Shown here: one piece after another, positions 945 through 53,652 of the stretch
Position numbering within the stretch: the stretch's first letter is position 1
Layout of the letters: each line of letters begins with the position of its first letter
Sequence record: GQ981382
Direction: 5' to 3' (one strand)
Origin: Shigella phage SP18
DNA length: 64,000 nt
The notes under the pieces: model-generated
Told to the model about the DNA's origin: nothing
Seen by the model: only the letters and a program-made list of their open reading frames with translations
Databases searched by the model: none
Made by a program: the position numbers and the translations under genes

Positions 945-1235
945 TTAGCACATTGCCGAAGAGGAGACCCAAGCACCAACTGTAACGACACCGTTTTCAA
1001 CTTCACCGCCGTTGTTTTCAATTTCATTTTTAAACCACTGGGAGCATTCATAACCGACAGGATAATATGTACGGCCCGAACCATAATCACCGGTACCAAA
1101 TTGGATACCATATTCATCTGCGATTTCTTCACAGTGTTTTTCAATTTCAGAGGTCTTATTTAGAAGAGAATAGATAGCTTTTTCTGCAGATTTCTCATCA
1201 TAATACTTGGGGATAGCAATTTCAATTTTATTCAT
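945..1235 (-). CDS. small protein, paralog D; C-terminus G-A-W-V-S-S-S-A-M-C
   Basis: ORF track 96 aa; EEIADEY motif plus conserved C-terminus; ATGA overlap with upstream gene. Confidence 0.6.
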   Translation of the reverse strand: MNKIEIAIPKYYDEKSAEKAIYSLLNKTSEIEKHCEEIADEYGIQFGTGDYGSGRTYYPVGYECSQWFKNEIENNGGEVENGVVTVGAWVSSSAMC

Positions 1236-1585
1236 GATTTACATTCCTTAATAAAGGTTTCAAGTTCATTGCGTTTTGTTTTGTCTAGGAACTTATTATA
1301 CTCAGCCATTGCTGAAGCATATCTCTTCCGACTAGGAGCATTCACGGCATTTGTGTGACAGATATCATACACAACAGGGATAAAATAAGACACAACAGCC
1401 GGAGCGATTATCATAAAGAAGCCCATCTCAATAGGCATCACTCCCTCGATTGCAGCCATAACCGTGGTCATTACCAGACCAACCAGGCCGCCAAGCATGG
1501 CGGTGACAATCCCTAATAATAAATTGGCACCAATATCATATTCAGCCAATTGATAAACATGTGATGCAAGACTAGGCCGTTCCAT
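1232..1585 (-). CDS. small membrane protein with two predicted transmembrane helices
   Basis: Internal ATG at complement 1583-1585 preceded by AAGGAGG; two hydrophobic stretches followed by a basic C-terminal tail. Confidence 0.55.
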   Translation of the reverse strand: MERPSLASHVYQLAEYDIGANLLLGIVTAMLGGLVGLVMTTVMAAIEGVMPIEMGFFMIIAPAVVSYFIPVVYDICHTNAVNAPSRKRYASAMAEYNKFLDKTKRNELETFIKECKS

Positions 1586-5215: not shown

Positions 5216-5291
5216 TGGTCGAGACAGTAGGGATCGAACCTACGACCTAGGACTTAGAAGGTCCTTGCTCTTCCTTCTGAGCTATGCCTCG
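5216..5291 (-). tRNA. tRNA-Arg (anticodon UCU), CCA encoded
   Basis: Manual cloverleaf: acceptor CGAGGCA/TGTCTCG, D-stem GCTC/GAGC, anticodon stem AGGAC/GTCCT with loop CTTCTAA, T-arm GTAGG-TTCGATC-CCTAC. Confidence 0.8.
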
Positions 5292-5298
5292 TAATTTG

Positions 5299-5370
5299 CG
5301 GACACACATGGATTCGAACCATGGACCAATTGATTAACAGTCAACTGCTCTACCACTGAGCTATGCATCC
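5299..5370 (-). tRNA. tRNA-Asn (anticodon GUU), CCA not encoded
   Basis: Manual cloverleaf: D-arm GCTC-AGTGGTA-GAGC, anticodon loop CTGTTAA, T-arm CATGG-TTCGAAT-CCATG, acceptor with two G-U pairs. Confidence 0.75.
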
Positions 5371-5374
5371 AAAT

Positions 5375-5449
5375 TGGTGGCCCTTGCTGGTTTCGATCCA
5401 GCTACCTATCAGTTATGAGCTGACAGCTCTCCCATTGAGCTAAAGGGCC
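5375..5449 (-). tRNA. tRNA with CAU anticodon (Met or Ile2), CCA encoded
   Basis: Manual cloverleaf: acceptor GGCCCTT/AAGGGCC, D-arm GCTC-AATGGGA-GAGC, anticodon loop CTCATAA, T-arm GCTGG-ATCGAAA-CCAGC. Confidence 0.75.
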
Positions 5450-8860: not shown

Positions 8861-9456
8861 ACGTTTCTCATAGATGGATGCATTGACTTAGACCTGATTT
8901 CCTGTTGCATTGCTGCATTACTATCAATCTGTGGTCTACCTTCTATTATTATACCATCAATTTCTACAGCAAAAGACTTAAAGTTGAAAGTTGCTGTTGC
9001 GTTGATAGCGGGGTCAGAATCTTCTTTATATGAATACTGAATCTCTGACAGGTCGGACGGCCATGCTCCATAGTAATGGATTGACATGACAATTTTGTCC
9101 TTGTTGTTATCTAAGATATGAAGCGTAACCGCTTCAGGACGACCCTTTGGATGCCATGCTTTTGATTCGTGTGTGATGTAGTTGTTGAGCGAGAGCATCC
9201 ATTTATAGATATCAAGCCATGCTCTTAAGTCTTTGTCGCACAGAAAGTTAACAATCAACGGGTCGAATTCTATTGTACTACCAGGAAGACTGGAGCGATT
9301 TATACCTTGTGTTCCCCCAGGGACATCCGTCACAGGAATGTGAACTCCTGGAAGGGTAACGTCTTGAACGTTGAGTTTAAAGGTCTGTGTGAGGTTTGAA
9401 TCGCTTACCTCTAATATAAAGTTAGTCGTGTTAGTTTGATTATATAAACCTGACAT
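8857..9456 (-). CDS. 3: gp3 tail completion / sheath stabiliser protein (assigned by position and size)
   Basis: ATG at 9454-9456 with AAGGTG RBS; 199 aa between genes 1 and 2 as in T4; the longer track ORF is rejected. Confidence 0.55.
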   Translation of the reverse strand: MSGLYNQTNTTNFILEVSDSNLTQTFKLNVQDVTLPGVHIPVTDVPGGTQGINRSSLPGSTIEFDPLIVNFLCDKDLRAWLDIYKWMLSLNNYITHESKAWHPKGRPEAVTLHILDNNKDKIVMSIHYYGAWPSDLSEIQYSYKEDSDPAINATATFNFKSFAVEIDGIIIEGRPQIDSNAAMQQEIRSKSMHPSMRNV

Positions 9457-9467
9457 AGTGCACCTTG

Positions 9468-9506
9468 TTTGCTTTAAAACAATCAGTGTTATAATGGTTC
9501 TAGACC
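9468..9506 (+). promoter_or_regulatory. MotA-box middle promoter (TTTGCTTTA-N13-TATAAT) with conserved start region GGTTCTAGACC, oriented antisense to genes 2 and 4
   Basis: TGCTT to TATAAT spacing 20 nt; identical -10/+1 block to copies at 44487 and 50159. Confidence 0.55.
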
Positions 9507-9541
9507 TTTTGTCCTTACCAATAACACTGACCGATAATAGA

Positions 9542-10375
9542 TTATGAATTTCTCCAAACTTTTTGTGCAGAGAATTTTTTGCCTTTGCTGTAAAAAGCTT
9601 GCAACGGAAGCATAACAACGTTTGCCCAGTCACTGGGCTTGATTTCAGTGATAGTACCTTTTATATTGCCAGGTATATATGCTTTAATCATCTGGTCAGC
9701 CCCTTTAAATCCCTTCACCTTTGACCAATCAATTTTCAGATGAGTCTTGTTCGTAATCGTAGGAGTATTAGCATATTGCTTAAGAAGTTCCTCAAGGAAC
9801 TCTTGACGCGCCTTCGGCGGAATATAGTGCAAGTTCAAACCATACATCAAATTGTGCTTACCTAGCCCAAGATAAATGATTAACGGATATTTGTCCCAGT
9901 ACGGAAGAGTATCCTTATGCTTTGCATCATAGATATAAGCATAAATTTTACCCGGTTGAGGTTTAGCCGTTACGTGGCCACGAACTGATTTCTTAATTGT
10001 CTCAGCGAACCATCTGGCAGATTTGGTGTTGCTTGCTGCACCTTCGTTAGCAATCTTATCTCTTATGCTCTTTCTAAAGCTATTCACCATTATCAGCTGG
10101 CGTTCAGCCTTCGTAAGTTTACCAGCAGGTTTCTTTTTGAGTTTGGATACTTTATAAGCAGTCTGAATTCTCGAATTGTATCTTGACATGCTTTTGGTAA
10201 AGGTCGAATAGTTGATTCCTTTCTCTTCAGCAAACTTCTTCGAAGTCATTCCCTTTTCTTTTGCTGTATAAAATTCAACCCCTATCTCAACCCATTGTTG
10301 TTCGGATTTACTGGGTTTTGGACCTGGTTTATCTGCAGATTCATTGATAAATGTAAAAATACTCATCCTTTCCAT
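9542..10375 (-). CDS. 2: gp2 DNA end protector protein (assigned by position and size)
   Basis: 277 aa, basic; lies between 3 and 4 as in T4. Confidence 0.55.
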
Positions 10376-11463: not shown

Positions 11464-13247
11464 TTAATATGTCAGATAATGTAAGTTGGTTCGTCGGGGT
11501 TGTCGAAGACCGAATGGACCCACTTCAGCAAGGTCGTGTGCGTGTTCGTGTATGGGGTATGCATCCATATGAGAAAGCACAAGGGCCTGTTAAAGGTATC
11601 AGAACCGAAGACCTTCCTTGGATGTCTGTATTGATGCCGACATCATCTGCATCAGTTTCTGGGATTCAAACTGCCATGACTGGTATGGTCCCAGGTACTC
11701 AAGTATATGGTCACTTTTTAGACAAGTGGAAGCTCAACGGTCTTGTTATTGGTACGTATGGTTCAGCCTCAAGACAAAAGGCAAATCCTAACGAAGGCTT
11801 CTCTGACCCTACAGGACAATACCCGCTTTATGTTGGTAATGATGCTGCAGCGCTTAACCGTGGCGGTGAAGTCGGTTATGATGCAACTTCGAACGTAATT
11901 CAGGATGCGAACCTTGACCTTGGTATTAACCCAGATGGTCTTGATTTGAGCCAGGTTAAGCCTGATGATAATCCTAATTTCACAATTGAAAATATGCTCC
12001 ACCGTGATGAAGGTCTTCGACTGAAGGTATATTGGGACACCGAAGGTTATCCTACTATAGGCATAGGACACTTAATTGCACCACAACCTATTAGAGATAT
12101 GAATCAGATAAACAAAATATTATCTAATCAAATAGGCCGTGAAGTTAAAGGTAACCCTGGTGCAATATCAATGGACGAGGCTTCTAAGTTATTCCAAGAA
12201 GACCTTAAAAAAGTCCAAAACGATATAGGTAGGCATAGTGTTGTGGGTCCGGTTTATAATAAAGAAAACCGTTCGAGACAAATGGCTCTTGAAAACATGG
12301 CTTTCCAAATGGGATTAGGTGGATTGGCTAAATTCCGTGGAATGCTTAGCGCAATGTTAGTAGGTGATTATAAAAAAGCATTTGAGGAAGCTCGTAATTC
12401 AGTATGGTTTAACCAAACTAAAGGACGTGCATCAAGGGTATCAATGATTATCCTTACCGGTAATATGGAATCATATGGTATTATGGCTCCTAAAGAAAGG
12501 TCATTTAAAGGGCGTTCATATAGGATGATTCAAACCTTTGCAGCCCCTGCAAATTCTGACCCAGCCGACCCATGGACTCCAGAAGATACACGGATTCTAT
12601 TTAAAGAGCCAGAATCAAGTTACAAGGGCGAATATCCTTACGTGCAGACAATGCAAACTGAAGGCGGTCATATTCAGGAATTCGATAACACCCCTGGACA
12701 AGAACGTTATCGACTGATTCACCCAACCGGTTCCTACGAGGAAGTTGCACCAGATGGTCGTAAGACTTCGAAGACAGTGGCCGATGGTTATTATATGACC
12801 CAGGGTGATTCGAGTACTTACGTTGGTGGTAATAATAAAGTCAACGTTGGCGGTGATGAAACCTATTATAATATGGCTAATGTTCGTCGTCAGACCGATG
12901 GAAACGAAAGCATTCATATTCGTGGGAATGAAACCAAAACTGTAGAAGGTAATGGAACTTTGCTTGTTAAAGGAAATGTTAAAATAGTTATTATGGGTAC
13001 TGCTGATATAACTGTTGAACAAGAAGCATATATTACGGTTGAAAAAGATACAACAGTTAATGTCAACCAGAATGCAGATATAAGTGTTAAACAAAAGGCC
13101 ACAATCAATGCTCAAAATATGGATGTAAATGTCGAACAAGATTTAAATTTTGCAGCGACGAACATTAATTTAAACGCATCAAATACTGTGCATATGGATG
13201 GTGGTTCATTAGCTAAAGTATCTGGTGGCAACGTACAGGTCGGTTAA
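11460..13247 (+). CDS. 5: gp5 baseplate hub subunit and tail lysozyme (cell-puncturing device)
   Basis: N-terminal NVSWFVGVVED...; internal T4-lysozyme-like domain (HRDEGLRLKVYWDTEGYPTIGIGH); C-terminal beta-helix repeats. Confidence 0.9.
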   Translation: MINMSDNVSWFVGVVEDRMDPLQQGRVRVRVWGMHPYEKAQGPVKGIRTEDLPWMSVLMPTSSASVSGIQTAMTGMVPGTQVYGHFLDKWKLNGLVIGTYGSASRQKANPNEGFSDPTGQYPLYVGNDAAALNRGGEVGYDATSNVIQDANLDLGINPDGLDLSQVKPDDNPNFTIENMLHRDEGLRLKVYWDTEGYPTIGIGHLIAPQPIRDMNQINKILSNQIGREVKGNPGAISMDEASKLFQEDLKKVQNDIGRHSVVGPVYNKENRSRQMALENMAFQMGLGGLAKFRGMLSAMLVGDYKKAFEEARNSVWFNQTKGRASRVSMIILTGNMESYGIMAPKERSFKGRSYRMIQTFAAPANSDPADPWTPEDTRILFKEPESSYKGEYPYVQTMQTEGGHIQEFDNTPGQERYRLIHPTGSYEEVAPDGRKTSKTVADGYYMTQGDSSTYVGGNNKVNVGGDETYYNMANVRRQTDGNESIHIRGNETKTVEGNGTLLVKGNVKIVIMGTADITVEQEAYITVEKDTTVNVNQNADISVKQKATINAQNMDVNVEQDLNFAATNINLNASNTVHMDGGSLAKVSGGNVQVG

Positions 13248-35601: not shown

Positions 35602-35652
35602 CCGTAGAACCATTATACAGTGCTATAAATAAAAGCATAATCGGTTCTACGG
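35602..35652 (-). promoter_or_regulatory. MotA-box middle promoter (ATGCTTTTA-N12-TATAAT-GGTTCTACGG) on minus strand between genes 18 and 19; -10 lies between 10-bp inverted repeats CCGTAGAACC/GGTTCTACGG
   Basis: Fourth copy of the conserved promoter block; inverted repeat at 35602-35611 and 35643-35652. Confidence 0.5.
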
Positions 35653-43369: not shown

Positions 43370-43394
43370 GGGACCTTCGGGTCCCTTTATTTTT
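43370..43394. terminator. bidirectional terminator GGGACC-TTCG-GGTCCC between gene 24 (+) and rnlB (-)
   Basis: Hairpin flanked by A-run upstream and T-run downstream. Confidence 0.7.
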
Positions 43395-44400
43395 ATTCAC
43401 TAACTAATGCAATCCAAACATGTCTTAATGTTTCTCTTACATTTGCGATGAGTTGCTTTTTAACTTCAACAGGATTTTCCGTCAGAGACAATTCAAGACC
43501 TTCGCGCCCCGCTTCTTCCAGAATATCTTGGACTGTTAACCCCATTACCTTTCCAAAATCCTTCGGTGTTACTTCCCCAATTTTACTGATAACATTGTTG
43601 ATACGGTTAACAGTCACATAATCAGTGAAATTCCACAGTAAATCCATATCATTTTGGCTCAGAACCACTGCAGCCTTAATAGGCTTATCAGACTTTTTCT
43701 TTTCACTGAATTTAGAGTTCTTACATTTAATCGCCACACGCTCGCCGTTAGGTAACCAGGCAGGAACATCAGGTTTTAATACAAATCCTTCAGCAGTGAA
43801 TACTTTACCTTCCACCTTTGCATCAAAATCAGTGGTATTTGCTGTAGTCAATCCTGCGTTATCCACTGTAAAATTGTAATCAGGGACCACAGAATCCAGG
43901 TCATTAGGTAGCTTAATTAATTCTTCAAAACTACCTGTAGCCAGGCGCGGGGCAACTTTAAACTTATGAATAATACAAAAGGCTTCCATAAGTGTGTCAG
44001 TCAGGACGGATTCAGAGCCATCTTCCTTAGTAACGCGGATATCAAACACATAGAAATCTTTATCGCCGTAATTCACATTCTTCTGAATACCTGTACCAGC
44101 AAACTCACCATAAATCTGATATGCCTGGTAATTAATATCCTGCAAAAGTTTCTGCACAGATTTAATAGAATCTACGTAGTTCTTTAATACAATTTCATAA
44201 CCATAGAAATCTTCTGCAGGTAGGATAGGTCCAGTGCGTTTCGCGCATGTCACATTGTCTTGTTCAATAATTAATGAAAAATTGGTACCATGAATTTTCT
44301 CGCGGGCTACCCATTCACCGCTGGTGAAGCCTTGTAGGCGAATTTTTTCAATGAATTTGTTGTTATAGTGATTTTCAAGGCTGTTATATTTCTTAAACAT
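43393..44400 (-). CDS. rnlB: RNA ligase 2 (RnlB)
   Basis: [13 protein letters not shown]...[16 protein letters not shown]... matches recalled T4 Rnl2 including KxHG motif. Confidence 0.9.
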
Positions 44401-44486
44401 ATTCTCTCACTTTTGATGTTATAAATATCATTATAAATTAGACCCACTATACTTTCTTTCTCTGAAAGGAATTAATAGTTGCAAAG

Positions 44487-44525
44487 GGTCTAGAACCATT
44501 ATACCGCATTTTTATTTGAAGCAAA
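44487..44525 (-). promoter_or_regulatory. MotA-box middle promoter (TTTGCTTCA-N13-TATAAT-GGTTCTAGACC) upstream of rnlB
   Basis: Canonical box/-10 spacing; conserved start block. Confidence 0.6.
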
Positions 44526-44530
44526 AAGGG

Positions 44531-44794
44531 TCAGAATTTTACATACAGCATTGGCTTGGATTCTTGCCAATCATAATTCCAGGTAAAAGATGTAAATTTT
44601 TCTGCTCGCAGAAATTCAGATATCTTTGTGCGGTTTCCTTCTTCATACTCTTTTTCAGAAACTGCCATATTAACAGCATCTTTGCCATTTTCAGCGGCGG
44701 CAATAGCCACTTTGCGAAATATAGAAATAAAGTCATTTGCAACTTTATCTTGTGACTCTTTGGCTATTTGGCGTAGTTCTTCTGCGAATGTCAT
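44531..44794 (-). CDS. hypothetical protein
   Basis: ORF track 87 aa between rnlB and hoc. Confidence 0.5.
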   Translation of the reverse strand: MTFAEELRQIAKESQDKVANDFISIFRKVAIAAAENGKDAVNMAVSEKEYEEGNRTKISEFLRAEKFTSFTWNYDWQESKPMLYVKF

Positions 44795-44994
44795 TTCTTC
44801 ACCTTTTTGTTATTCAAACGTTTACGATAAACAATCTTTTCTTTCGCTTTAAATTTAGCTTTAGCTTGCTCTACATCAACCCAGGCCTTTGCCATCTCTT
44901 TAGCAGTCCCGCCTAATACCTTGGCGATTTCAATAAATGTCATACCAGATTCATGCAGAAAATGTACTTTAACCTTATCCATAATGATTCTCAT
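44791..44994 (-). CDS. hypothetical small basic protein with possible helix-turn-helix
   Basis: ORF track 67 aa; ATGA overlap with downstream gene. Confidence 0.45.
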   Translation of the reverse strand: MRIIMDKVKVHFLHESGMTFIEIAKVLGGTAKEMAKAWVDVEQAKAKFKAKEKIVYRKRLNNKKVKK

Positions 44995-45088
44995 GTTGAG
45001 TTAGTGAAGCTATCTTAACATGGAATTTTTAACTTGTAAACAGGGTTTTTATGCCAGGCAACGCTTGCCCAGTACCATAAAAAATAAA

Positions 45089-45110
45089 GGGACCTTCGGG
45101 TCCCTTTTTA
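45089..45110 (-). terminator. terminator GGGACC-TTCG-GGTCCC downstream of hoc (minus strand)
   Basis: Hairpin with flanking A/T runs. Confidence 0.65.
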
Positions 45111-45111
45111 A

Positions 45112-45960
45112 TTAATAAACGTAATCGTATATAATACCAGCTTCTAAAGCGGTGCGATGAATAATTCGACCATTACGAGATTCTTGTACATCAACCTCTG
45201 GATAGTCGGTAATCATTTTTTGAAGGGTATATCGGTGCAAATAATATGGGCTATCTGGAGCATCAGTTTTCCAGTCTTGTCCAGCAAGAGTCATTTTCTG
45301 AATTTCGTCCATAACCCACCAACCACACCAGATATAAGCTGAATTACGAACTGGCAGCGGATGAACGTAAGGTAATTCGCCATCTGGAACTGGTGCGACT
45401 TTAGCCGTGACTGTTACATTACCAGTTTTTGTGACAGTCACCGGGTCATAATCAGTCGCCGAAACCACAACAGAAACTTCAATAACCTGTGAACCTTCAG
45501 CGCTTGTATCGATTACCAGAGTATCCGTGGTGCCAACTACAGGAGAACCGTCTTTCTTCCAAGAATAGGCAAAAGTAGCATCACCAGGTGCGCCAACTAC
45601 ATCCGCTTTAAAAGAAGCCGGAGTACCTTCCTGAACATTAATTGATTCTGGGGTTAATGTCACAGAAACATCAGACATAGTTTTATTCTGGATAGTTAAA
45701 GTCGTCTCAGCTTCAGCTGTTTCTGGTTCGCCGTCCGCTGGTGTAGTTGTTGCAACAACTTTAATAGTCTTGCTACCTGCTGGACCAACAGCAACATAAT
45801 CCATTGCAGCAGTCACAGAAGATTGAGGAACACCATCAACGGTCCAGACAAATGATTCGGTACCTTCAGCTGCAGCACCGGAACCGGTTGCAGTGAAATT
45901 GGTTGTTGCTCCAATAACGGCCGTAGCCGCCAAAGGAGCAATATCTACGGTATAAGCCAT
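45112..45960 (-). CDS. hoc: Hoc outer capsid protein, apparently with two Ig-like domains (T4 Hoc is longer)
   Basis: C-terminal ...PYVHPLPVRNSAYIWCGWWVMDEIQKMT...YYLHRYTLQKM... matches recalled T4 Hoc capsid-binding region. Confidence 0.85.
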   Translation of the reverse strand: MAYTVDIAPLAATAVIGATTNFTATGSGAAAEGTESFVWTVDGVPQSSVTAAMDYVAVGPAGSKTIKVVATTTPADGEPETAEAETTLTIQNKTMSDVSVTLTPESINVQEGTPASFKADVVGAPGDATFAYSWKKDGSPVVGTTDTLVIDTSAEGSQVIEVSVVVSATDYDPVTVTKTGNVTVTAKVAPVPDGELPYVHPLPVRNSAYIWCGWWVMDEIQKMTLAGQDWKTDAPDSPYYLHRYTLQKMITDYPEVDVQESRNGRIIHRTALEAGIIYDYVY

Positions 45961-45969
45961 AATAAACCC

Positions 45970-46635
45970 TTATTTTAAAGTGACAAAAGATGAGTTACGA
46001 GTTTCTCGTACTAGAACAGACCCATTACGATTGATGTAATAAATCAAACTGAATAGAGTTTGGTGCGCGGTGGGATGTGGGAAAGCAGTTGGACGTTCTT
46101 TCCAATCTGGAGTCTCGGCAATCCACTGATAAATCCACCATGGAACAGTACAGAATCCAGGGTTCTTACCAATAAGCATTAAATTCGGGCTAAAGTTTTT
46201 TGGCAAATCAAATACAGGTTTTTCAGATTCGATAACCTTAGCAACAGCAGCTTCGAACTTTTCTTCGACAAAAGGAACGTCCTCTTCGACCAAAACAACT
46301 GGTTCTTCGATTTCAACAACTTCAACCTTTGCTTCGGTTGGAGCATCAAATAAGAGCTTAGCTTCTTCTTTAGCTGACTCATCGCCATCAAATTTAGCAC
46401 CTGACAATTCGTCATCGGCATCGATAAGGTCAGTGATGCTCAGTCCCTCATTATCATCAGGCATGGGCATGTCAGCAAATGCTTTAAGCCCTGCTTCCAG
46501 GTCAGCCAACATATTATCAAAGGTTTTTGTTTTCTTAACATCAACACCAAGTGATGCTGCATATTCGGCTAATTTTTCTTTGGCTTCTTTTTTCTCGAGG
46601 ACACGAATTTCCTCAATGTAGTTCTTGTCAATCAT
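45970..46635 (-). CDS. inh: Inh-like protein (inhibitor of prohead protease), assigned mainly by position
   Basis: 221 aa, acidic, directly downstream of hoc as in T4. Confidence 0.55.
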   Translation of the reverse strand: MIDKNYIEEIRVLEKKEAKEKLAEYAASLGVDVKKTKTFDNMLADLEAGLKAFADMPMPDDNEGLSITDLIDADDELSGAKFDGDESAKEEAKLLFDAPTEAKVEVVEIEEPVVLVEEDVPFVEEKFEAAVAKVIESEKPVFDLPKNFSPNLMLIGKNPGFCTVPWWIYQWIAETPDWKERPTAFPHPTAHQTLFSLIYYINRNGSVLVRETRNSSFVTLK

Positions 46636-46653
46636 GATGAACCTCGGTTAGTG

Positions 46654-46661
46654 TATAAATA
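46654..46661 (+). promoter_or_regulatory. late promoter TATAAATA upstream of uvsW
   Basis: Exact consensus 29 nt before ATG. Confidence 0.6.
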
Positions 46662-46689
46662 TAGATATATTTATTACCTTGGAATCATC

Positions 46690-48189
46690 ATGGATATTAA
46701 AATCAACTTTCTAAATTTTAGTCACGTGCATGTTGAATGTGAAGATGGAATCTTCTACGAACTCCGTGATTACTTCAGCTTCGAAGCTGAAAACTATCGC
46801 TTCAATCCAAAGTTCAAGCAGGGAGTTTGGGACGGACGAATCCGCCTCCTGGATTACAATCGTAAATTACCATACGGTTTGGTTAATCAAATTAAAAAGT
46901 TCGCTGACCAGTTTGGTTATTCATTCTGGATTGACCCGCAAATCACCGAGAAAGAAGAAATCTCTCGCGAAGAATTCGACAAATGGGTTGAGTCAAAAGA
47001 AATCTATTCAGGCAATACCAAGATAACGCCTCATTGGTATCAATCTGACGCCGTATATGACGGTCTGGTCAACAGAAGAAAGATTCTGAACTTACCTACG
47101 TCTGCAGGTAAAAGCCTCATCCAGGCGCTTCTGGCGCGATATTATCTCGAGAACTATGAAGGCAAGGTGCTTATCCTTGTTCCTACAACCGCGCTTGTTG
47201 ACCAGATGATTAATGACTTTGTTGATTATCGGCTTTTCCCTCGTGAAGCTTGTCTGGGTATTCGTTCCGGGACTAAACGCGATTCTGATGCGATGATTTA
47301 TGTATCGACTTATCAGACGGCTGTAAAACAACCTAAAGAATGGTTTGGCCAGTTTGGCCAGTTTATGAATGACGAATGCCACATGGCTACAGGTAAATCG
47401 ATTTCGACGGTTATCGAAGGCCTTACGAATTGCATGTTTAAATTTGGTCTGTCAGGTTCACTCCGTGATGGCAAAGCCAACCTTATGCAATATATGGGTC
47501 TGTTTGGTGATATCTTTAAACCAGTATCAACATCCAAATTGATGGAAGATGGCCAGGTTACTGACCTTAAAATAAATAGTATTTTCCTTCGTTACCCTGA
47601 TGAATTCACTGTTAAAATGAAAGGTAAAACTTATCAGGATGAAATTAAGGTAATTACAAAAGCTACACGCCGAAATAAATGGGTAACAAATCTTGCTCTC
47701 AAGCTTGCTAAAAAAGATGAAAACGTCTTTTTGATGTTTAAGAATATCGAGCACGGTAAATCGATGTTTGAAATGCTTAAGGAAGCTGGTCATGAGAAAG
47801 TGTATTATGTTTCCGGGGAAGTTGATACCGAAACCCGTAATGCTCTGAAGGTCATGGCAGAGAATGGAAAGGGAATTATTGTTGTAGCTTCATACGGTGT
47901 ATTCTCAACGGGGATTTCCGTTAAAAACCTCCATCATATTATTTTCGCTCACCCGGTCAAGTCAAAGGTAATTGTACTCCAGACAATTGGTCGTGTGCTT
48001 CGAAAACATGAATCCAAATCACAAGCAAACGTTTTTGATATCGTTGATGATATGGGTGTTAAACCTAAATCAGCAAATGCTAAAAAGAAATATGTTCATC
48101 TTAACTTTGCCCTAAAACATGGCCTTGAACGTATACAACGATATGCTGATGAACGTTTTAACTATGTAATTAAACAGGTGGAAATTTGA
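46690..48189 (+). CDS. uvsW: UvsW helicase
   Basis: ATG at 46690; MDIKINFLNFSHV... and helicase motifs (LPTSAGKS, MNDECH) match recalled T4 UvsW; late promoter at 46654-46661. Confidence 0.9.
   Translation: MDIKINFLNFSHVHVECEDGIFYELRDYFSFEAENYRFNPKFKQGVWDGRIRLLDYNRKLPYGLVNQIKKFADQFGYSFWIDPQITEKEEISREEFDKWVESKEIYSGNTKITPHWYQSDAVYDGLVNRRKILNLPTSAGKSLIQALLARYYLENYEGKVLILVPTTALVDQMINDFVDYRLFPREACLGIRSGTKRDSDAMIYVSTYQTAVKQPKEWFGQFGQFMNDECHMATGKSISTVIEGLTNCMFKFGLSGSLRDGKANLMQYMGLFGDIFKPVSTSKLMEDGQVTDLKINSIFLRYPDEFTVKMKGKTYQDEIKVITKATRRNKWVTNLALKLAKKDENVFLMFKNIEHGKSMFEMLKEAGHEKVYYVSGEVDTETRNALKVMAENGKGIIVVASYGVFSTGISVKNLHHIIFAHPVKSKVIVLQTIGRVLRKHESKSQANVFDIVDDMGVKPKSANAKKKYVHLNFALKHGLERIQRYADERFNYVIKQVEI
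48168..48185 (+). repeat. 18-bp direct repeat AATTAAACAGGTGGAAAT, copy 1 (3' end of uvsW)
   Basis: Exact second copy at 48860-48877 at the 3' end of the HNH endonuclease gene. Confidence 0.9.
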
Positions 48190-48877
48190 ATTATCAAAAA
48201 ATATATGATGATTTAATTGGGAGTCGAAAGGCTTCCAAACCGATTGGATACACGGAATCTCACCATATCATTCCAGAATGTATGGGTGGACCTGATACAC
48301 AAGAAAACAGAGTCAACCTTACTCCGGAAGAACATTTCGTTGCGCATAAATTATTGGCCAAAATTCATCCTAATCATTACGGTCTTATAAAGGCCGTCAT
48401 TGCTATGGGTATGAGCTCTCGAACACATCAACGACAATTCAATAAATCGTATGGATGGGAGCGTAGACAAATGTCAGTTCTTCAAACTGGTGAAGGCAAT
48501 CCTTTTTATGGTAAACACCATACTGAAGAACATAAAGAATATATGAGCCAATTATTAAAGGGTCGCAAAATAACTTGGGCTGATAAAATATCCGCGACAA
48601 AGAAAGCGAATCCGTATAAATACTCTCAAGCACAATGTCAAGCTATATCTGAAAGAAATAAAGGTGAAGGTAATTGGATGTATGGTAAATCACATACACC
48701 AGAAGCATCAAAGAAAATTTCAGATAAAGCAAAAGAACGTTATAAGGACCCATCCAAAAATCCTGCCGCTAAGAAAGTGGTTTTAAACGGGATTGAATAT
48801 GGTTCGATGAAGCAAGCTTCTGTAGCAACGGGGCTTTCTTTATATAAAATCAGAAATTTAATTAAACAGGTGGAAAT
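48186..48877 (+). mobile_element. free-standing HNH homing-endonuclease cassette inserted between uvsW and uvsW.1
   Basis: HNH ORF bounded by 18-bp direct repeats; uvsW and uvsW.1 are adjacent in T4. Confidence 0.6.
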
Positions 48878-48881
48878 ATAA
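48186..48881 (+). CDS. HNH homing endonuclease (mob-like) with NUMOD3-like repeats
   Basis: TTG start overlapping uvsW stop; ESHHIIP...N...EH HNH core; inserted between uvsW and uvsW.1. Confidence 0.7.
   Translation: MNYQKIYDDLIGSRKASKPIGYTESHHIIPECMGGPDTQENRVNLTPEEHFVAHKLLAKIHPNHYGLIKAVIAMGMSSRTHQRQFNKSYGWERRQMSVLQTGEGNPFYGKHHTEEHKEYMSQLLKGRKITWADKISATKKANPYKYSQAQCQAISERNKGEGNWMYGKSHTPEASKKISDKAKERYKDPSKNPAAKKVVLNGIEYGSMKQASVATGLSLYKIRNLIKQVEI
48860..48877 (+). repeat. 18-bp direct repeat AATTAAACAGGTGGAAAT, copy 2
   Basis: Exact match to 48168-48185; both encode the terminal IKQVEI. Confidence 0.9.
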
Positions 48882-49108
48882 TGAAATCCTTCGAAGAAAT
48901 TATGTACGAAGCATCAATTGAAGGCTTTATGGCTAAGATTGGCTCCTGTCAGACCATGGACGGTCTGAAGGAGTTGGAAGGCTATTATAAGAAACGCAGC
49001 AAAGAAGCTGAACTGAAAGATTCCGATGATATCAGTGTTCGTGACGCTCTTGCCGGTAAACGCGCCGAGCTTGAGGATATGGACGACGACGAAGACGAAG
49101 ATTTCTAA
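48881..49108 (+). CDS. uvsW.1: UvsW.1 small acidic protein
   Basis: 75 aa with acidic tail DDDEDEDF, TAATG start, in conserved position. Confidence 0.7.
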   Translation: MKSFEEIMYEASIEGFMAKIGSCQTMDGLKELEGYYKKRSKEAELKDSDDISVRDALAGKRAELEDMDDDEDEDF

Positions 49109-49115
49109 ATAAAAA

Positions 49116-49150
49116 GGCCCCAACCAAAAGGAAGGGGCAAAACCAAAAAA
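49116..49150 (-). terminator. rho-independent terminator for minus-strand uvsY operon (GCCCC-loop-GGGGC then U-run on minus)
   Basis: Stem 49117-49121/49134-49138, A-rich plus-strand flank 49139-49150. Confidence 0.6.
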
Positions 49151-49166
49151 TGGTTAACAACACTAG

Positions 49167-49334
49167 CTAAATTAAAAGTTGGGTCTCGTTCAGTTGCTCT
49201 TCTGTATTTTCCGTAACTGGCAAACTCTGAACATAATTATAACAGGCGCCCGGATGCACCGGACCTTGGTCTGTATCCACAACCAATGCAGAATCGATTG
49301 GAGTTTTACAGACAACACAAATCTTATCTGACAT
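49167..49334 (-). CDS. small Cys-containing protein (55 aa), position of T4 uvsY.-2
   Basis: Manual translation MSDKICVVCKTPIDS...; below the 60-aa track cutoff; followed by minus-strand terminator. Confidence 0.4.
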   Translation of the reverse strand: MSDKICVVCKTPIDSALVVDTDQGPVHPGACYNYVQSLPVTENTEEQLNETQLLI

Positions 49335-49362
49335 GATTGTCTCCTCAGTTAAACTTACATAT

Positions 49363-49473
49363 CTATTTAGTGCTCTTCATAATAGCAGCACGAGCTTTCA
49401 TCTCATTAACAATTTCAGTTATTCGGTTTGCAGAGATAACCATCTCGTCAAGAATCTTACTAATATTTTTCAT
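49363..49473 (-). CDS. tiny ORF (36 aa) immediately downstream of uvsY.-1
   Basis: ATG 1 nt after uvsY.-1 stop with AAGGAA 5 nt upstream. Confidence 0.3.
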   Translation of the reverse strand: MKNISKILDEMVISANRITEIVNEMKARAAIMKSTK

Positions 49474-49707
49474 TTAATTTTCCTTAAAGTATCTCATACC
49501 GGTATCTATCCCCATATTGTGAGAATAGAACGCATCATCGATGTATCCTGCAAATTTACCTTTAACATAGATAACATCTTCACCACAAGGGTGGTCAGCG
49601 CAGATACGAATATCCGCACGATTCAATTTCCATTCCTTCATCATATACTTAATTTCTTCTTCGAACTCTTCGTCTTGGTTAAACGCATCGTCGATAGAAT
49701 ATCGCAT
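49474..49707 (-). CDS. UvsY.-1-like protein
   Basis: 77 aa directly downstream of uvsY, translationally coupled. Confidence 0.6.
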   Translation of the reverse strand: MRYSIDDAFNQDEEFEEEIKYMMKEWKLNRADIRICADHPCGEDVIYVKGKFAGYIDDAFYSHNMGIDTGMRYFKEN

Positions 49708-50141
49708 TACTTGCCTGCCTCGAATTGTCTTATTTCTAACATATGTTTAAGTGCGAAACTTCGTGACTTAACACCATCTAATGCAGCGCTACAGAAGTCC
49801 TGGAGTAGTGCCCAATACTGAATTGAAGTATCAATCTTCAGTATGTTTGAATCTGCGGCCATGACTGTTTTCAATTCTGACTTCTCGTATACATCCATGC
49901 ATACTTCTTCCCCTGGGTCACCCCTTCCTGTATAATGGTCTAGCCGTTTTTTCAGTGCAGTTTTCTTCTGAATCTCAAGACGCATTATTTCTTTCTTGCA
50001 GTTGGTATACAATCTCAACCATTTGCTATGCAACAAAACGTTGTTTTGTGTTTCATATTGAAGTTGCGTACCATCAATTTTTAAATCTGCATCCAACTCA
50101 TCCTGAAAGACTTCTAACTTATATTCAATCTCTGTTTTCAT
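49707..50141 (-). CDS. uvsY: UvsY recombination mediator
   Basis: ATG at 50139-50141; ...LQYETQNNVLLHSKWL...YWALLQDFCSAALDGVKSRSFALKHMLEIRQFEAGK matches recalled T4 UvsY; MotA-type promoter upstream. Confidence 0.9.
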   Translation of the reverse strand: MKTEIEYKLEVFQDELDADLKIDGTQLQYETQNNVLLHSKWLRLYTNCKKEIMRLEIQKKTALKKRLDHYTGRGDPGEEVCMDVYEKSELKTVMAADSNILKIDTSIQYWALLQDFCSAALDGVKSRSFALKHMLEIRQFEAGK

Positions 50142-50158
50142 AATGTATCCAATGTAAG

Positions 50159-50196
50159 GGTCTAGAACCATTATACAGCCATAAAATTAAAGCATT
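50159..50196 (-). promoter_or_regulatory. MotA-box middle promoter (AATGCTTTA-N12-TATAAT-GGTTCTAGACC) upstream of uvsY
   Basis: T4 uvsY is a classical MotA-dependent middle gene; motif 18 nt upstream of ATG. Confidence 0.65.
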
Positions 50197-53180: not shown

Positions 53181-53652
53181 TAAAGAGATTCACGTTCCCA
53201 AGCTTGGACTCAAGCATCACAATCTGATTAAAAACGAACCTAATCCTTATGTTGCATTAAGAAAGATTATGCAATCGATATTCCCTAATCTTACAGCAGC
53301 CGAATCCGACTTTGTATCTTTACATCTTCTGGAATTCAATGGTAAGCTAAAAGACAAACGCGAGATTAATGGATTTACATATAAGCTGGATGATGTTTAT
53401 ATCTGTCAGCGCCTTGAATTCTCTTATCAAGGAAAGACATTTAAATTCCGCTCCAATAAACCGTATGAAGAATTCGGACCAGTTGACAATCTCCTGGAGA
53501 CCCTTTATCTCGGGGAAGATGTTCCAGACTTTCTGGATATGCCTGCTTTTGTTGCTAAGTGGGCAGACGATATCACAAGCACATTAGCAATCCCGGGCCC
53601 GAATGGTCCTGTTAAGGGGTTACTGAAAATAATGGAACTCCTAAATGAATAA
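53134..53652 (+). CDS. 28: gp28 baseplate hub distal subunit
   Basis: ATG at 53134 with GAAGG RBS, overlapping gp27 3' end; 172 aa. Confidence 0.7.

What the first reader, a model, noticed from the sequence alone, without database searches (positions are those of the whole stretch)
44487..50196. Middle-promoter family with a conserved, near-palindromic start region (TATAAT-GGTTCTAGACC)
Four copies (9468-9506 plus; 35602-35639, 44487-44525, 50159-50196 minus) share variable MotA boxes at canonical spacing but an almost invariant block TATAATGGTTCTA(G/C)ACC. The downstream part contains the palindrome TCTAGA within GGT...ACC; in the fourth copy palindromy is supplied by a separate inverted partner instead. 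Conservation beyond the -10 suggests a second function at the start site, such as an operator for a dimeric regulator, a conserved 5' RNA end, or a processing site.
Basis: partly seen in the sequence, partly recalled or inferred. Interest (0 to 1): 0.55.

Follow-up and report, generated by a model that had tools for sequence, protein, structure and literature searches.

The report
T4-type middle promoters sharing start block
Four sites in this T4-like phage are a conserved subclass of MotA-type middle promoters with an identical -10-to-start sequence; two drive uvsY and rnlB, two fire backwards into late genes, and the apparent palindrome is incidental rather than a repressor site.

Summary
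TATAATGGTTCTA occurs exactly four times in the window (none expected), each 14-15 nt downstream of a MotA box.

The window is a Gaprivervirus (about 97% identical to Escherichia phage 212), which encodes MotA and AsiA.

Copies 3 and 4 are the rnlB and uvsY promoters. Copies 1 and 2 sit in the gene 2/3 and gene 18/19 intergenic regions and point antisense into late genes. A fifth copy, antisense to modA, lies outside the window.

T4 has the same subclass (TATAATG..TCTAAG.CC):
- PuvsY (the oriF promoter) and PnrdC.7, whose mapped 5' ends fix +1 at the A of TCTA.
- Two plus-strand copies that are not among the identified T4 middle promoters.

TATAAT followed by G marks PuvsY in 38 T4-like contigs. 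The antisense gene 2/3 promoter is present in 32 of 37 gp3 loci.

The palindrome is not conserved and shows no covariation, so an operator is unsupported. No conserved RNA fold was found.

The start block does evolve in concert within genomes (p about 0.001). One lineage shows a whole-cassette copy.

Best reading: this is a promoter-core module (discriminator plus start region), spread by cassette copying and kept by selection. Why positions +2 to +8 are lineage-specific remains unexplained.

The parts
9468..9506 (+). Copy 1 ('2as'). MotA box TTTGCTTTA 9468-9476; -10 TATAAT 9490-9495; block GGTTCTAGACC 9496-9506; inferred +1 = A9502. It lies in the gene 3 / gene 2 intergenic region (both genes on the minus strand), so it fires antisense into gene 2.
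   Evidence: Flanking genes. An orthologous antisense promoter is present in T4 (+75963-76005), JS10, ATK47 and ZX14, and in 32 of 37 gp3 loci.
35602..35639 (-). Copy 2 ('18as'). MotA box TATGCTTTT 35631-35639; -10 35612-35617; block GGTTCTACGG; inferred +1 = A35605. It lies in the gene 18 / gene 19 intergenic region (both genes on the plus strand), so it fires antisense into gene 18.
   Evidence: An orthologue is present in the JS10 18/19 spacer. It is absent in T4, ATK47 and ZX14.
44487..44525 (-). Copy 3. Promoter of rnlB. MotA box TTTGCTTCA 44517-44525; -10 44498-44503; inferred +1 = A44491. The leader is 91 nt, up to the rnlB ATG at 44400.
   Evidence: Orthologous block-bearing promoters occur in ATK47 (rnlB) and JS10 (24.3/rnlB operon).
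50159..50196 (-). Copy 4. PuvsY. MotA box AATGCTTTA 50188-50196; -10 50170-50175; inferred +1 = A50163. The leader is 22 nt, up to the uvsY ATG at 50141. It is the positional orthologue of the T4 PuvsY / oriF promoter.
9483..9530 (.). Perfect 10-bp inverted repeat TCAGTGTTAT / ATAACACTGA. It brackets the -10, start and first 28 nt of copy 1.
   Evidence: An inverted repeat in the same register but of different sequence occurs in JS10, ZX14 and L122 (read by eye).
35602..35652 (.). Perfect 10-bp inverted repeat CCGTAGAACC / GGTTCTACGG. Its loop holds the MotA box and -10 of copy 2.
44439..44451 (-). Degenerate second copy of the core, TATAGTGGGTCTA, 52 nt downstream of copy 3. Its GGGTCTA pairs with the TAGACCC of the block (7 bp).
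49707..50141 (-). uvsY, driven by copy 4.
   Evidence: Pfam UvsY, E = 2e-50.
43393..44400 (-). rnlB (RNA ligase 2), driven by copy 3.
   Evidence: Pfam RNA_ligase plus T4_Rnl2_C. VR20 annotation.

Best explanation
The four sites are a conserved subclass of MotA/AsiA-dependent (sigma-appropriation) middle promoters. There are five genome-wide, judged from the closest relative.

How they work:
- MotA binds the box at about -30.
- AsiA-remodelled sigma70 polymerase recognises the perfect TATAAT.
- The invariant block is the rest of the region that polymerase melts and first copies: a six-base discriminator beginning G-G (GGTTCT), a start at the A seven bases after the -10, and the first four to five transcribed bases (AGACC).

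Why the block is shared:
(a) The positions common to all lineages are polymerase-level determinants of open-complex stability and start-site choice. These are G at -6, usually G at -5, pyrimidines at -3 to -1, and a purine start.
(b) Promoter cores of this subclass are occasionally copied or converted between loci and are then held by purifying selection while the spacer drifts. This gives each genome its own version: TCTAGACC here, TCTAAGTCC in T4, T(T/C)TAGGTC in Mosigvirus and Dhakavirus.

The TCTAGA palindrome is a lineage-specific by-product of a roughly symmetric consensus (GGNYYT|ARRNCC). It is not an operator.

Outputs:
- Two copies make the uvsY and rnlB mRNAs.
- Two copies, plus the modA one outside the window, start untranslated RNAs antisense to genes 2 and 18 (and modA).

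Shown: the sequence anatomy, orthology, conservation, concerted evolution and the lack of palindrome covariation.

Inferred: MotA dependence and the start site in this phage, the polymerase-level role of the block, and the fate and function of the antisense RNAs.
For: Identity as middle promoters:
- Exact repeats with canonical MotA-box spacing.
- MotA (34% identity) and AsiA (53%) orthologues in phage 212.
- T4 PuvsY and PnrdC.7 have the same architecture. Their published start sites, 115371 and 53325, fall on the A of TCTA.

Distinct subclass:
- About 54 other identified T4 middle promoters lack the block.
- In the window, 4 of 7 sites with a good MotA box plus a perfect TATAAT carry it.

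Depth of conservation:
- TATAAT followed by G is found in 38 PuvsY orthologues; 33 of them have GG.
- The antisense gene 2/3 promoter is present in 32 of 37 gp3 loci.
- In the 21-member alignment, TATAAT, G-6, T-1 and A+1 are invariant.

Polymerase level:
- In the sigma-appropriation complex, contacts downstream of -20 are the same as in a normal open complex (PMC6755090).
- That G at -6/-5 contacts sigma region 1.2 is from my own knowledge (Haugen 2006; Feklistov 2006).

Copying plus selection:
- In contig 2974770551, PuvsY and the antisense gene 2/3 promoter are identical from about -40 to +24.
- In four other lineages the block is at least 79% identical within a genome while the spacer sits at background (0.21-0.43).
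- 5 of 11 lineages reach at least 0.78 identity, against 6% of cross-lineage pairs; permutation p = 0.0012. A four-genome, 16-site test gave p = 0.0014.
Against: - No transcript mapping exists for this phage. Nor does it exist for the two plus-strand T4 copies, which are not in the table of about 58 identified T4 middle promoters.
- Polymerase contacts do not obviously explain conservation at +2 to +8. All compared phages except the Klebsiella and Enterobacter ones infect E. coli, so host polymerase cannot explain the lineage-specific versions.
- G at +2 is not universal.
- Conversion tracts of about 20 bp with unrelated flanks are short for homologous recombination. A lineage-specific trans-acting reader would predict the same pattern.
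- In about half of the lineages PuvsY and the antisense gene 2/3 promoter do not share the block (identity 0.21-0.50).
Confidence: 0.6

Rival explanations
1. Operator. The near-palindrome GGTTCTAGACC is bound by a dimeric phage regulator that switches this promoter subset on or off.
For: - Five of six symmetric pairs match in three window copies.
- Perfect palindromes occur elsewhere: GGACTAGTCC at the Jiaodavirus PuvsY and CCTAGG at the JS10 antisense gene 2/3 promoter.
- Genome-specific versions of the block are what a co-evolving DNA-binding protein would produce.
Against: - There is no dyad symmetry in T4 PuvsY or the T4 modA-antisense copy, nor in the Dhakavirus and Kanagawavirus PuvsY.
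- Symmetric positions pair no better than shuffles (73 of 500 shuffles as high). The covariation score is marginal (27 of 500). The (-3,+3) pair is T:G in 14 of 21 members.
- Copy 2 breaks the palindrome yet keeps the left half.
Confidence: 0.1
2. 5' RNA tag. The conserved first bases of the transcript (AGACC here; AAGUCC/AGGUCC followed by UUCCAUU in other genera) are read at the RNA level, for stability, processing or binding of a phage or host RNA-binding protein. This would give all RNAs of the subclass a common fate.
For: - In T4, Mosigvirus, Dhakavirus and Kanagawavirus, conservation continues to about +13 (..GTCC(N)TTCCATT..).
- The motif appears in both sense and antisense members.
- In some Gapriverviruses the rnlB leader reads AGACCTTCCGATAC.
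- The rnlB leader can pair its 5' end AGACCC with GGGUCU.
Against: - No leader folds better than shuffles (z from -1.31 to +1.19).
- There is no consensus structure and no Rfam family.
- The window copies lack TTCCATT and share only +1 to +5.
- Leader lengths range from 22 to 91 nt.
- The conserved unit begins upstream of the start (-6), which is not in the RNA.
Confidence: 0.13
3. Origin / R-loop primer promoters. The subclass marks promoters whose untranslated transcripts form persistent R-loops that prime or open DNA for replication, as T4 PuvsY does at oriF.
For: - Copy 4 is the orthologue of the oriF promoter.
- T4 P34i (oriG) is also an antisense middle promoter inside a late gene. It reads TATAATGGTCCCAGAG, with the same G-G, pyrimidine run and A start.
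- Antisense, untranslated RNAs suit R-loop formation.
- The review notes that the priming mechanisms at oriA, oriC and oriE are unresolved (PMC3016281).
Against: - The same review states that no local motif is shared among T4 origins. It places oriA near soc and oriC near rI.-1, and reports no middle promoter near oriE.
- The T4 copies at 11.9, 53.3 and 76.0 kb do not coincide with mapped origins.
- A+T content at +1 to +60 matches that of other T4 middle promoters (0.668 against 0.674).
- PrnlB and PnrdC.7 look like ordinary mRNA promoters.
Confidence: 0.12
4. Pure repeat homogenisation. The block has no function of its own. The copies are PeSL/PmSL-like promoter cassettes kept alike only by recombination.
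For: - A whole-cassette copy in lineage 2974770551.
- Which promoters carry the block changes between genera: nrdC.7 and nrdD in T4 only; 18as in Gaprivervirus and Dhakavirus only.
- The antisense cassettes share extra flanking motifs such as ATAATAGATTA.
Against: - Identity starts sharply at about -13, while the adjacent spacer is at background.
- G-6 and the TATAAT are fixed over at least 10 lineages at orthologous loci, which needs selection.
- The copies sit in conserved core regions, not in hyperplastic regions.
Confidence: 0.05

Closest known systems
T4 middle promoters PuvsY (oriF promoter) and PnrdC.7
   Same: They have the same architecture and the same kind of block: MotA box, 14-15 nt spacer, TATAAT, G, two bases, TCTA with a mapped start at that A, then AG.CC. 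Copy 4 is the positional orthologue of PuvsY.
   Different: The block sequence differs (TCTAAGTCC in T4, TCTAGACC here). T4 has no copy at 18/19 or directly upstream of rnlB. This lineage has none at nrdC.7 or nrdD.
T4 P34i (oriG promoter)
   Same: It is a MotA-dependent promoter antisense to a late gene. It reads TATAATGGTCCCAGAG, with the same G-G discriminator, pyrimidine run and A start. The orthologue in phage 212 reads TATAATGGTCCCAGAGC.
   Different: It lies inside a coding sequence rather than in an intergenic cassette. It has C, not T, at -1 and a different transcribed sequence.
PeSL / PmSL promoter-stem-loop cassettes of T4-type phages (Arbiol 2010; Comeau 2014, PMC4122927)
   Same: Both are repeated promoter modules, similar within a genome, associated with stem-loops, and capable of recombination between copies. 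PmSLs are built on Mot-box promoters.
   Different: PeSLs and PmSLs lie in hyperplastic regions next to indels, with the stem-loop upstream of the promoter. Here the copies are at orthologous sites in conserved core regions. Identity is confined to -13 to +6. Where inverted repeats exist, they enclose the promoter.
E. coli sigma70 discriminator / start-region determinants (own knowledge: Haugen 2006; Feklistov 2006; Zhang 2012)
   Same: G at the first two positions after the -10, a six-base discriminator and a pyrimidine(-1)/purine(+1) start are the features known to stabilise open complexes and fix the start site.
   Different: Those determinants do not account for the lineage-specific conservation of +2 to +8.

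Membership tests
T4-type MotA/AsiA-dependent middle promoter | MotA box (a/t)(a/t)(a/t)TGCTT(t/c)A centred near -30 | tested here: met
   The boxes are TTTGCTTTA, TATGCTTTT, TTTGCTTCA and AATGCTTTA.
T4-type MotA/AsiA-dependent middle promoter | Excellent sigma70 -10 element at the canonical distance from the box, and no TTGACA-type -35 | tested here: met
   All four have a perfect TATAAT 14-15 nt after GCTT. The generic sigma70 scan did not call them as -35/-10 promoters.
T4-type MotA/AsiA-dependent middle promoter | The genome encodes MotA and AsiA | tested here: met
   The window itself does not contain them. The 97%-identical phage 212 has MotA (34% identity to T4, E = 2e-35) and AsiA (53%, E = 7e-28).
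T4-type MotA/AsiA-dependent middle promoter | MotA/AsiA-dependent transcript 5' end in vivo or in vitro | not testable with these tools
   The evidence is by orthology only. T4 PuvsY (115371) and PnrdC.7 (53325) are mapped (PMC2988021).
T4 R-loop replication origin (oriF/oriG type) | Middle-mode promoter followed by an A+T-rich DNA unwinding element | tested here: inconclusive
   The promoter is present. Downstream A+T (0.60-0.78) is no different from that of other T4 middle promoters (mean 0.674).
T4 R-loop replication origin (oriF/oriG type) | Persistent R-loop and autonomous replication of a plasmid carrying the element | not testable with these tools
   Only positional orthology of copy 4 to oriF is available.
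Palindromic operator of a dimeric regulator | Dyad symmetry kept across family members, with compensatory changes | tested here: not met
   81.7% of cells are paired against 79.5 +/- 1.8 in shuffles. T:G is the commonest (-3,+3) pair. Several orthologues are asymmetric.
PeSL/PmSL mobile regulatory cassette | Near-identical promoter plus stem-loop units located in hyperplastic regions and flanking indels between close relatives | tested here: not met
   The copies lie at orthologous sites between core genes in at least 6 genera. Identity is limited to the promoter core. Copying between loci does occur in one lineage.
Structured RNA leader / known RNA family | Conserved secondary structure or an Rfam match | tested here: not met
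   Rfam finds only three tRNAs in the window. The leaders fold no better than shuffles. There is no consensus fold.

The most novel reading that the evidence does not exclude
The shared start block may define a small regulon of middle-mode RNAs that a lineage-specific reader (a phage protein or RNA) recognises at the promoter or at the RNA 5' end. The regulon would couple the uvsY/oriF transcript to untranslated antisense RNAs against gene 2 (the DNA-end protector), gene 18 and modA.

On this reading, the deeply conserved but never mapped antisense promoter between genes 2 and 3 keeps gp2 off, or primes DNA synthesis, during the recombination-dependent replication period that UvsY supports.
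Probability: 0.2. Interest if true: 0.7.

Novelty: new variant of a known kind. Interest (0 to 1): 0.48.

Why it matters
Middle promoters of T4 are a textbook system. Their published consensus stops at the -10.

This analysis shows a distinct subclass whose discriminator and start region are conserved across at least ten T4-like lineages. The subclass includes the oriF promoter. Its start region changes in step between unlinked promoters of one genome.

It also points to strongly conserved antisense middle promoters that are absent from the list of identified T4 middle promoters. These lie between genes 2 and 3, between srd and modA, and, in some genera, between genes 18 and 19. They are concrete candidates for the source of the classical 'anti-late' RNA (own knowledge), for unexplained origin priming, or for temporal silencing of gp2.

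All of these ideas are directly testable in T4 itself.

Tried and rejected
- Palindrome/operator: tested by pair counting on a 21-member alignment. There was no excess over shuffles, so it was rejected as a family feature.
- RNA structure: folding of the four leaders, a consensus fold of the gene 2/3 spacer and an Rfam scan gave nothing.
- Terminator for the RNA antisense to gene 2: a hairpin plus U-run at 9624-9638 sits on Ala-Pro...Trp-Ala codons. Its counterparts in T4, ATK47 and JS10 are weak or absent. I judged it a coding by-product.
- Origin link:
  - The T4 copies do not coincide with oriA, oriC or oriE.
  - There is no special A+T richness downstream.
  - The Brister papers could not be read, nor could the Miller 2003 review.
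- CTAG rarity: CTAG is only mildly under-represented (ratio 0.75-0.78), which is uninformative.
- tRNA T-arm resemblance of GGTTCTAGACC: no related match in the window's tRNA genes, and the start site splits the motif. Dropped.
- Degenerate pattern scans of IMG/VR: these mostly returned chance hits and only about 16 usable family members.
- Literature searches for the sequences, for T4 antisense RNAs or start-site maps, and for VR7 promoters found nothing relevant.
- The GenBank T4 records carry no promoter features.

Full report
**What is there**

TATAATGGTTCTA is exact at 9490(+), 35605-35617(-), 44491-44503(-) and 50163-50175(-), against zero matches in shuffles. The full 17-mer is exact at three of these sites. 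Each copy has a MotA-box-like element whose GCTT lies 14-15 nt upstream of the TATAAT. The spacers between box and -10 are unrelated. The bare 11-mer is not enriched on its own.

**Source and context**

- The window is a T4-like phage of the genus Gaprivervirus. It is 97% identical to Escherichia phage 212 and 96% to VR20, and has the same orientation as the T4 map.
- Copy 4 lies between gene 25 and uvsY, 22 nt upstream of the uvsY ATG.
- Copy 3 lies between 24.2 and rnlB.
- Copy 1 is on the plus strand in the spacer between genes 3 and 2, which are both on the minus strand.
- Copy 2 is on the minus strand in the spacer between genes 18 and 19, which are both on the plus strand.
- So two copies are sense promoters of middle genes, and two point backwards into the 3' ends of late genes.
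- In the rest of the phage 212 genome there is one further copy (TATAATGGTTCTAAGGTC). It lies between the modA-like gene and srd and is again antisense.
- Phage 212 encodes MotA and AsiA orthologues.

**The same family in T4**

Scanning the whole T4 genome for TATAATG..TCTA gives four MotA-box promoters with a shared block, GGTATAATG..TCTAAG(T/C)CC:

- PuvsY (minus strand, 115371-115383).
- PnrdC.7 (minus strand, 53325-53337).
- Two plus-strand copies, at 11885-11897 (srd/modA spacer) and 75988-76000 (gene 3/2 spacer).

PuvsY and PnrdC.7 are in the published table of identified T4 middle promoters. Their start sites, 115371 and 53325, fall on the A of TCTA, seven bases after the -10 (PMC2988021). 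By orthology the starts here are A9502, A35605, A44491 and A50163.

The two plus-strand T4 copies are not in that table. PuvsY is also the oriF promoter. P34i (oriG) and PnrdD are partial relatives: TATAATGGTCCCAgag and TATAATGAATCTGAcacc. The other roughly 54 identified T4 middle promoters have variable, A/T-rich sequence between the -10 and the start. This is therefore a subclass and not the general consensus. In the window, 4 of 7 sites with a good MotA box and a perfect TATAAT carry the block.

**How deep the conservation goes**

Block-bearing promoters occur at orthologous sites in six genera:

- Dhakavirus JS10: antisense 2/3, PuvsY, antisense 18/19, and the 24.3/rnlB operon.
- Mosigvirus ATK47: PuvsY, PrnlB and antisense 2/3.
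- Kanagawavirus ZX14: antisense 2/3 and PuvsY.
- Jiaodavirus phiA85: PuvsY.
- Plus Tequatrovirus (T4) and the Gaprivervirus of the window.

A protein-anchored survey of IMG/VR gave two results:

- 38 uvsY loci have a MotA box, TATAAT and G at -6. The next base is G in 33, and A only in the T4 group.
- The antisense promoter upstream of gene 3 is present in 32 of 37 gp3 loci. It is absent only where genes 2 and 3 abut, or in distant relatives.

On a 21-member alignment, TATAAT, G-6, T-1 and A+1 are invariant. The consensus is GGTTCTAGGTCCTT.C.ATT.

**The palindrome**

The consensus GGNYYT|ARRNCC is roughly symmetric about the start. Some members are good palindromes: the three window copies, GGACTAGTCC in phiA85 and CCTAGG in JS10. 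Others are not symmetric: T4 PuvsY, the T4 modA-antisense copy, and the Dhakavirus and Kanagawavirus PuvsY.

Pair counting gave 81.7% paired cells against 79.5 +/- 1.8 in column shuffles, with 73 of 500 shuffles as high. The commonest (-3,+3) pair is T:G, which is not a base pair in duplex DNA. The symmetry therefore belongs to the consensus. It is not maintained sequence by sequence. I reject an operator as the family's shared feature.

**RNA-level tests**

- The four leaders fold no better than shuffles.
- The gene 2/3 spacer has no consensus fold across genera.
- Rfam finds only three tRNAs in the window.
- In other genera the transcribed part is conserved to about +13 (GTCC..TTCCATT). The window copies share only +1 to +5.
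- A sequence-level RNA role stays possible but has no positive support.

**Concerted evolution**

In a four-genome set of 16 sites, paralogues within a genome are more alike at -6 to +8 than orthologues between genomes (0.74 against 0.65; permutation p = 0.0014).

I then compared PuvsY with the antisense gene 2/3 promoter, using one representative for each of 11 lineages:

- Same-genome identity at -6 to +8 is 0.79 or more in five lineages: Gaprivervirus 0.93, T4 0.79, Mosigvirus 0.86, lineage F 0.93 and lineage G 1.00.
- Only 6% of cross-lineage pairs reach that level (p = 0.0012 for the count; p = 0.013 for the mean).
- In lineage G (contig 2974770551) the two promoters are identical from about -40 to +24, which indicates a recent copy.
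- In the other four lineages the spacer is at background identity (0.21-0.43).
- In the remaining lineages the two promoters do not share the block (0.21-0.71).

My reading is that promoter cores of this subclass are occasionally copied between loci. After a copy event the box, the -10 and the block are retained while the spacer drifts. This fits the way the block-bearing set changes between genera: nrdC.7 and nrdD in T4 only, and the antisense 18/19 copy in two genera only. A lineage-specific reader of the block would predict the same pattern. I cannot exclude it.

**Mechanism**

In the sigma-appropriation complex, polymerase-DNA contacts downstream of -20 are those of an ordinary open complex (PMC6755090). 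From established knowledge, G at the first two discriminator positions contacts sigma region 1.2 and lengthens open-complex life. A six-base discriminator with pyrimidine at -1 and purine at +1 fixes the start site. That accounts for the positions conserved in all lineages. It does not account for the lineage-specific +2 to +8, which stays unexplained.

**The origin idea**

Copy 4 is the oriF-promoter orthologue. P34i shows that an antisense middle promoter in a late gene can be an origin. Against this:

- The T4 review states that no motif is shared among origins and that there is no middle promoter near oriE.
- The T4 copies lie 3-6 kb from oriA, oriC and oriE.
- Downstream A+T content is ordinary.

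**Verdict**

The 'palindromic operator' part is not.

The feature is a conserved subclass of a known promoter class. Three properties of it were not found in the searchable literature:

- A fixed discriminator and start block.
- Within-genome concerted evolution of that block.
- Deeply conserved antisense members, including two unlisted sites in T4 itself.

Noticed in passing
window 35624-35631 (+): A T4 late-promoter motif, TATAAATA, lies inside the spacer of copy 2 on the opposite strand and points towards gene 19. The motif occurs 21 times in the window against 4.8 expected, mostly on the late-gene strand. The antisense middle promoter and a likely gene 19 late promoter therefore overlap back to back and could exclude each other. 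The overlap is not conserved in JS10.
   Followed up: partly
window 44420-44451: The rnlB leader contains a degenerate second copy of the promoter core (TATAGTGGGTCTA, 44439-44451, minus strand). Its GGGTCTA pairs with the start block. The leader also has a plus-strand TATAAATA at 44420-44427 that points head-on at the rnlB promoter. Part of this leader (TCTAATTTATAATGATATTTATAA) is conserved in Kanagawavirus ZX14.
   Followed up: partly
window about 1281-1322 (-): Another good MotA-box promoter (ATATGCTTCA, 14 nt, TATAAT) is followed by AAGTTCCTAGAC. This looks like the start block shifted by one to two bases. It lies upstream of the ORF at 945-1235(-).
   Followed up: no
T4 NC_000866 11860-11902 (+) and 75963-76005 (+) (loci L015, L014): Two plus-strand middle-promoter-like sites in T4 carry the PuvsY-type block. 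They are antisense to modA and to gene 2, and are absent from the published table of identified T4 middle promoters. The modA one sits back to back with a typical early promoter for srd (GTTTAC...TATAGT). Its MotA box lies in the region immediately upstream of that promoter's -35, where an UP element would sit.
   Followed up: partly
window 9455-9545; L085 3130-3222; L208 7180-7275; L122 5775-5870: The gene 2/3 spacer has an inverted repeat that encloses the antisense promoter's -10 and start. It reads TCAGTGTTAT/ATAACACTGA here and CCTAGCCAGT/ACTGGCTGGG in JS10, with apparently compensatory differences in ZX14 and L122. In T4 and ATK47 a different hairpin lies downstream (CTTCCATTC/GAATGGAAG; CTCTTCC/GGAAGAG). 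The stop codons of genes 2, 18 and modA are followed by a shared TCTAT(T/A)AT motif. No consensus fold was found when all six sequences were aligned.
   Followed up: partly
L244 and L275 (IMG/VR contig 2974770551): In this T4-like genome, the uvsY promoter and the promoter antisense to gene 2 are identical over about 65 nt, spacer included. This looks like a recent duplication or conversion between loci about 39 kb apart.
   Followed up: partly
L218-L224 (PuvsY of Kanagawavirus-like contigs): In several lineages the start block reads as a direct repeat rather than a palindrome: GGGTCtatGGGTT, GGGTCcatGGGTC, GGGTTtacGGGTT. Copy 2 of the window reads GGTTctacGGTT. The two halves seem to change together, but there are too few independent lineages to test this.
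   Followed up: no
L006 (IMG/VR 2706795401) against window 9559 onwards: In one otherwise near-identical Gaprivervirus genome, the sequence diverges completely about 57 nt downstream of the antisense gene 2/3 start, inside the 3' end of gene 2. This may be a replacement or an insertion next to the cassette.
   Followed up: no
window 5219-5449 (-): Three tandem tRNA genes are the only Rfam matches in the window.
   Followed up: no
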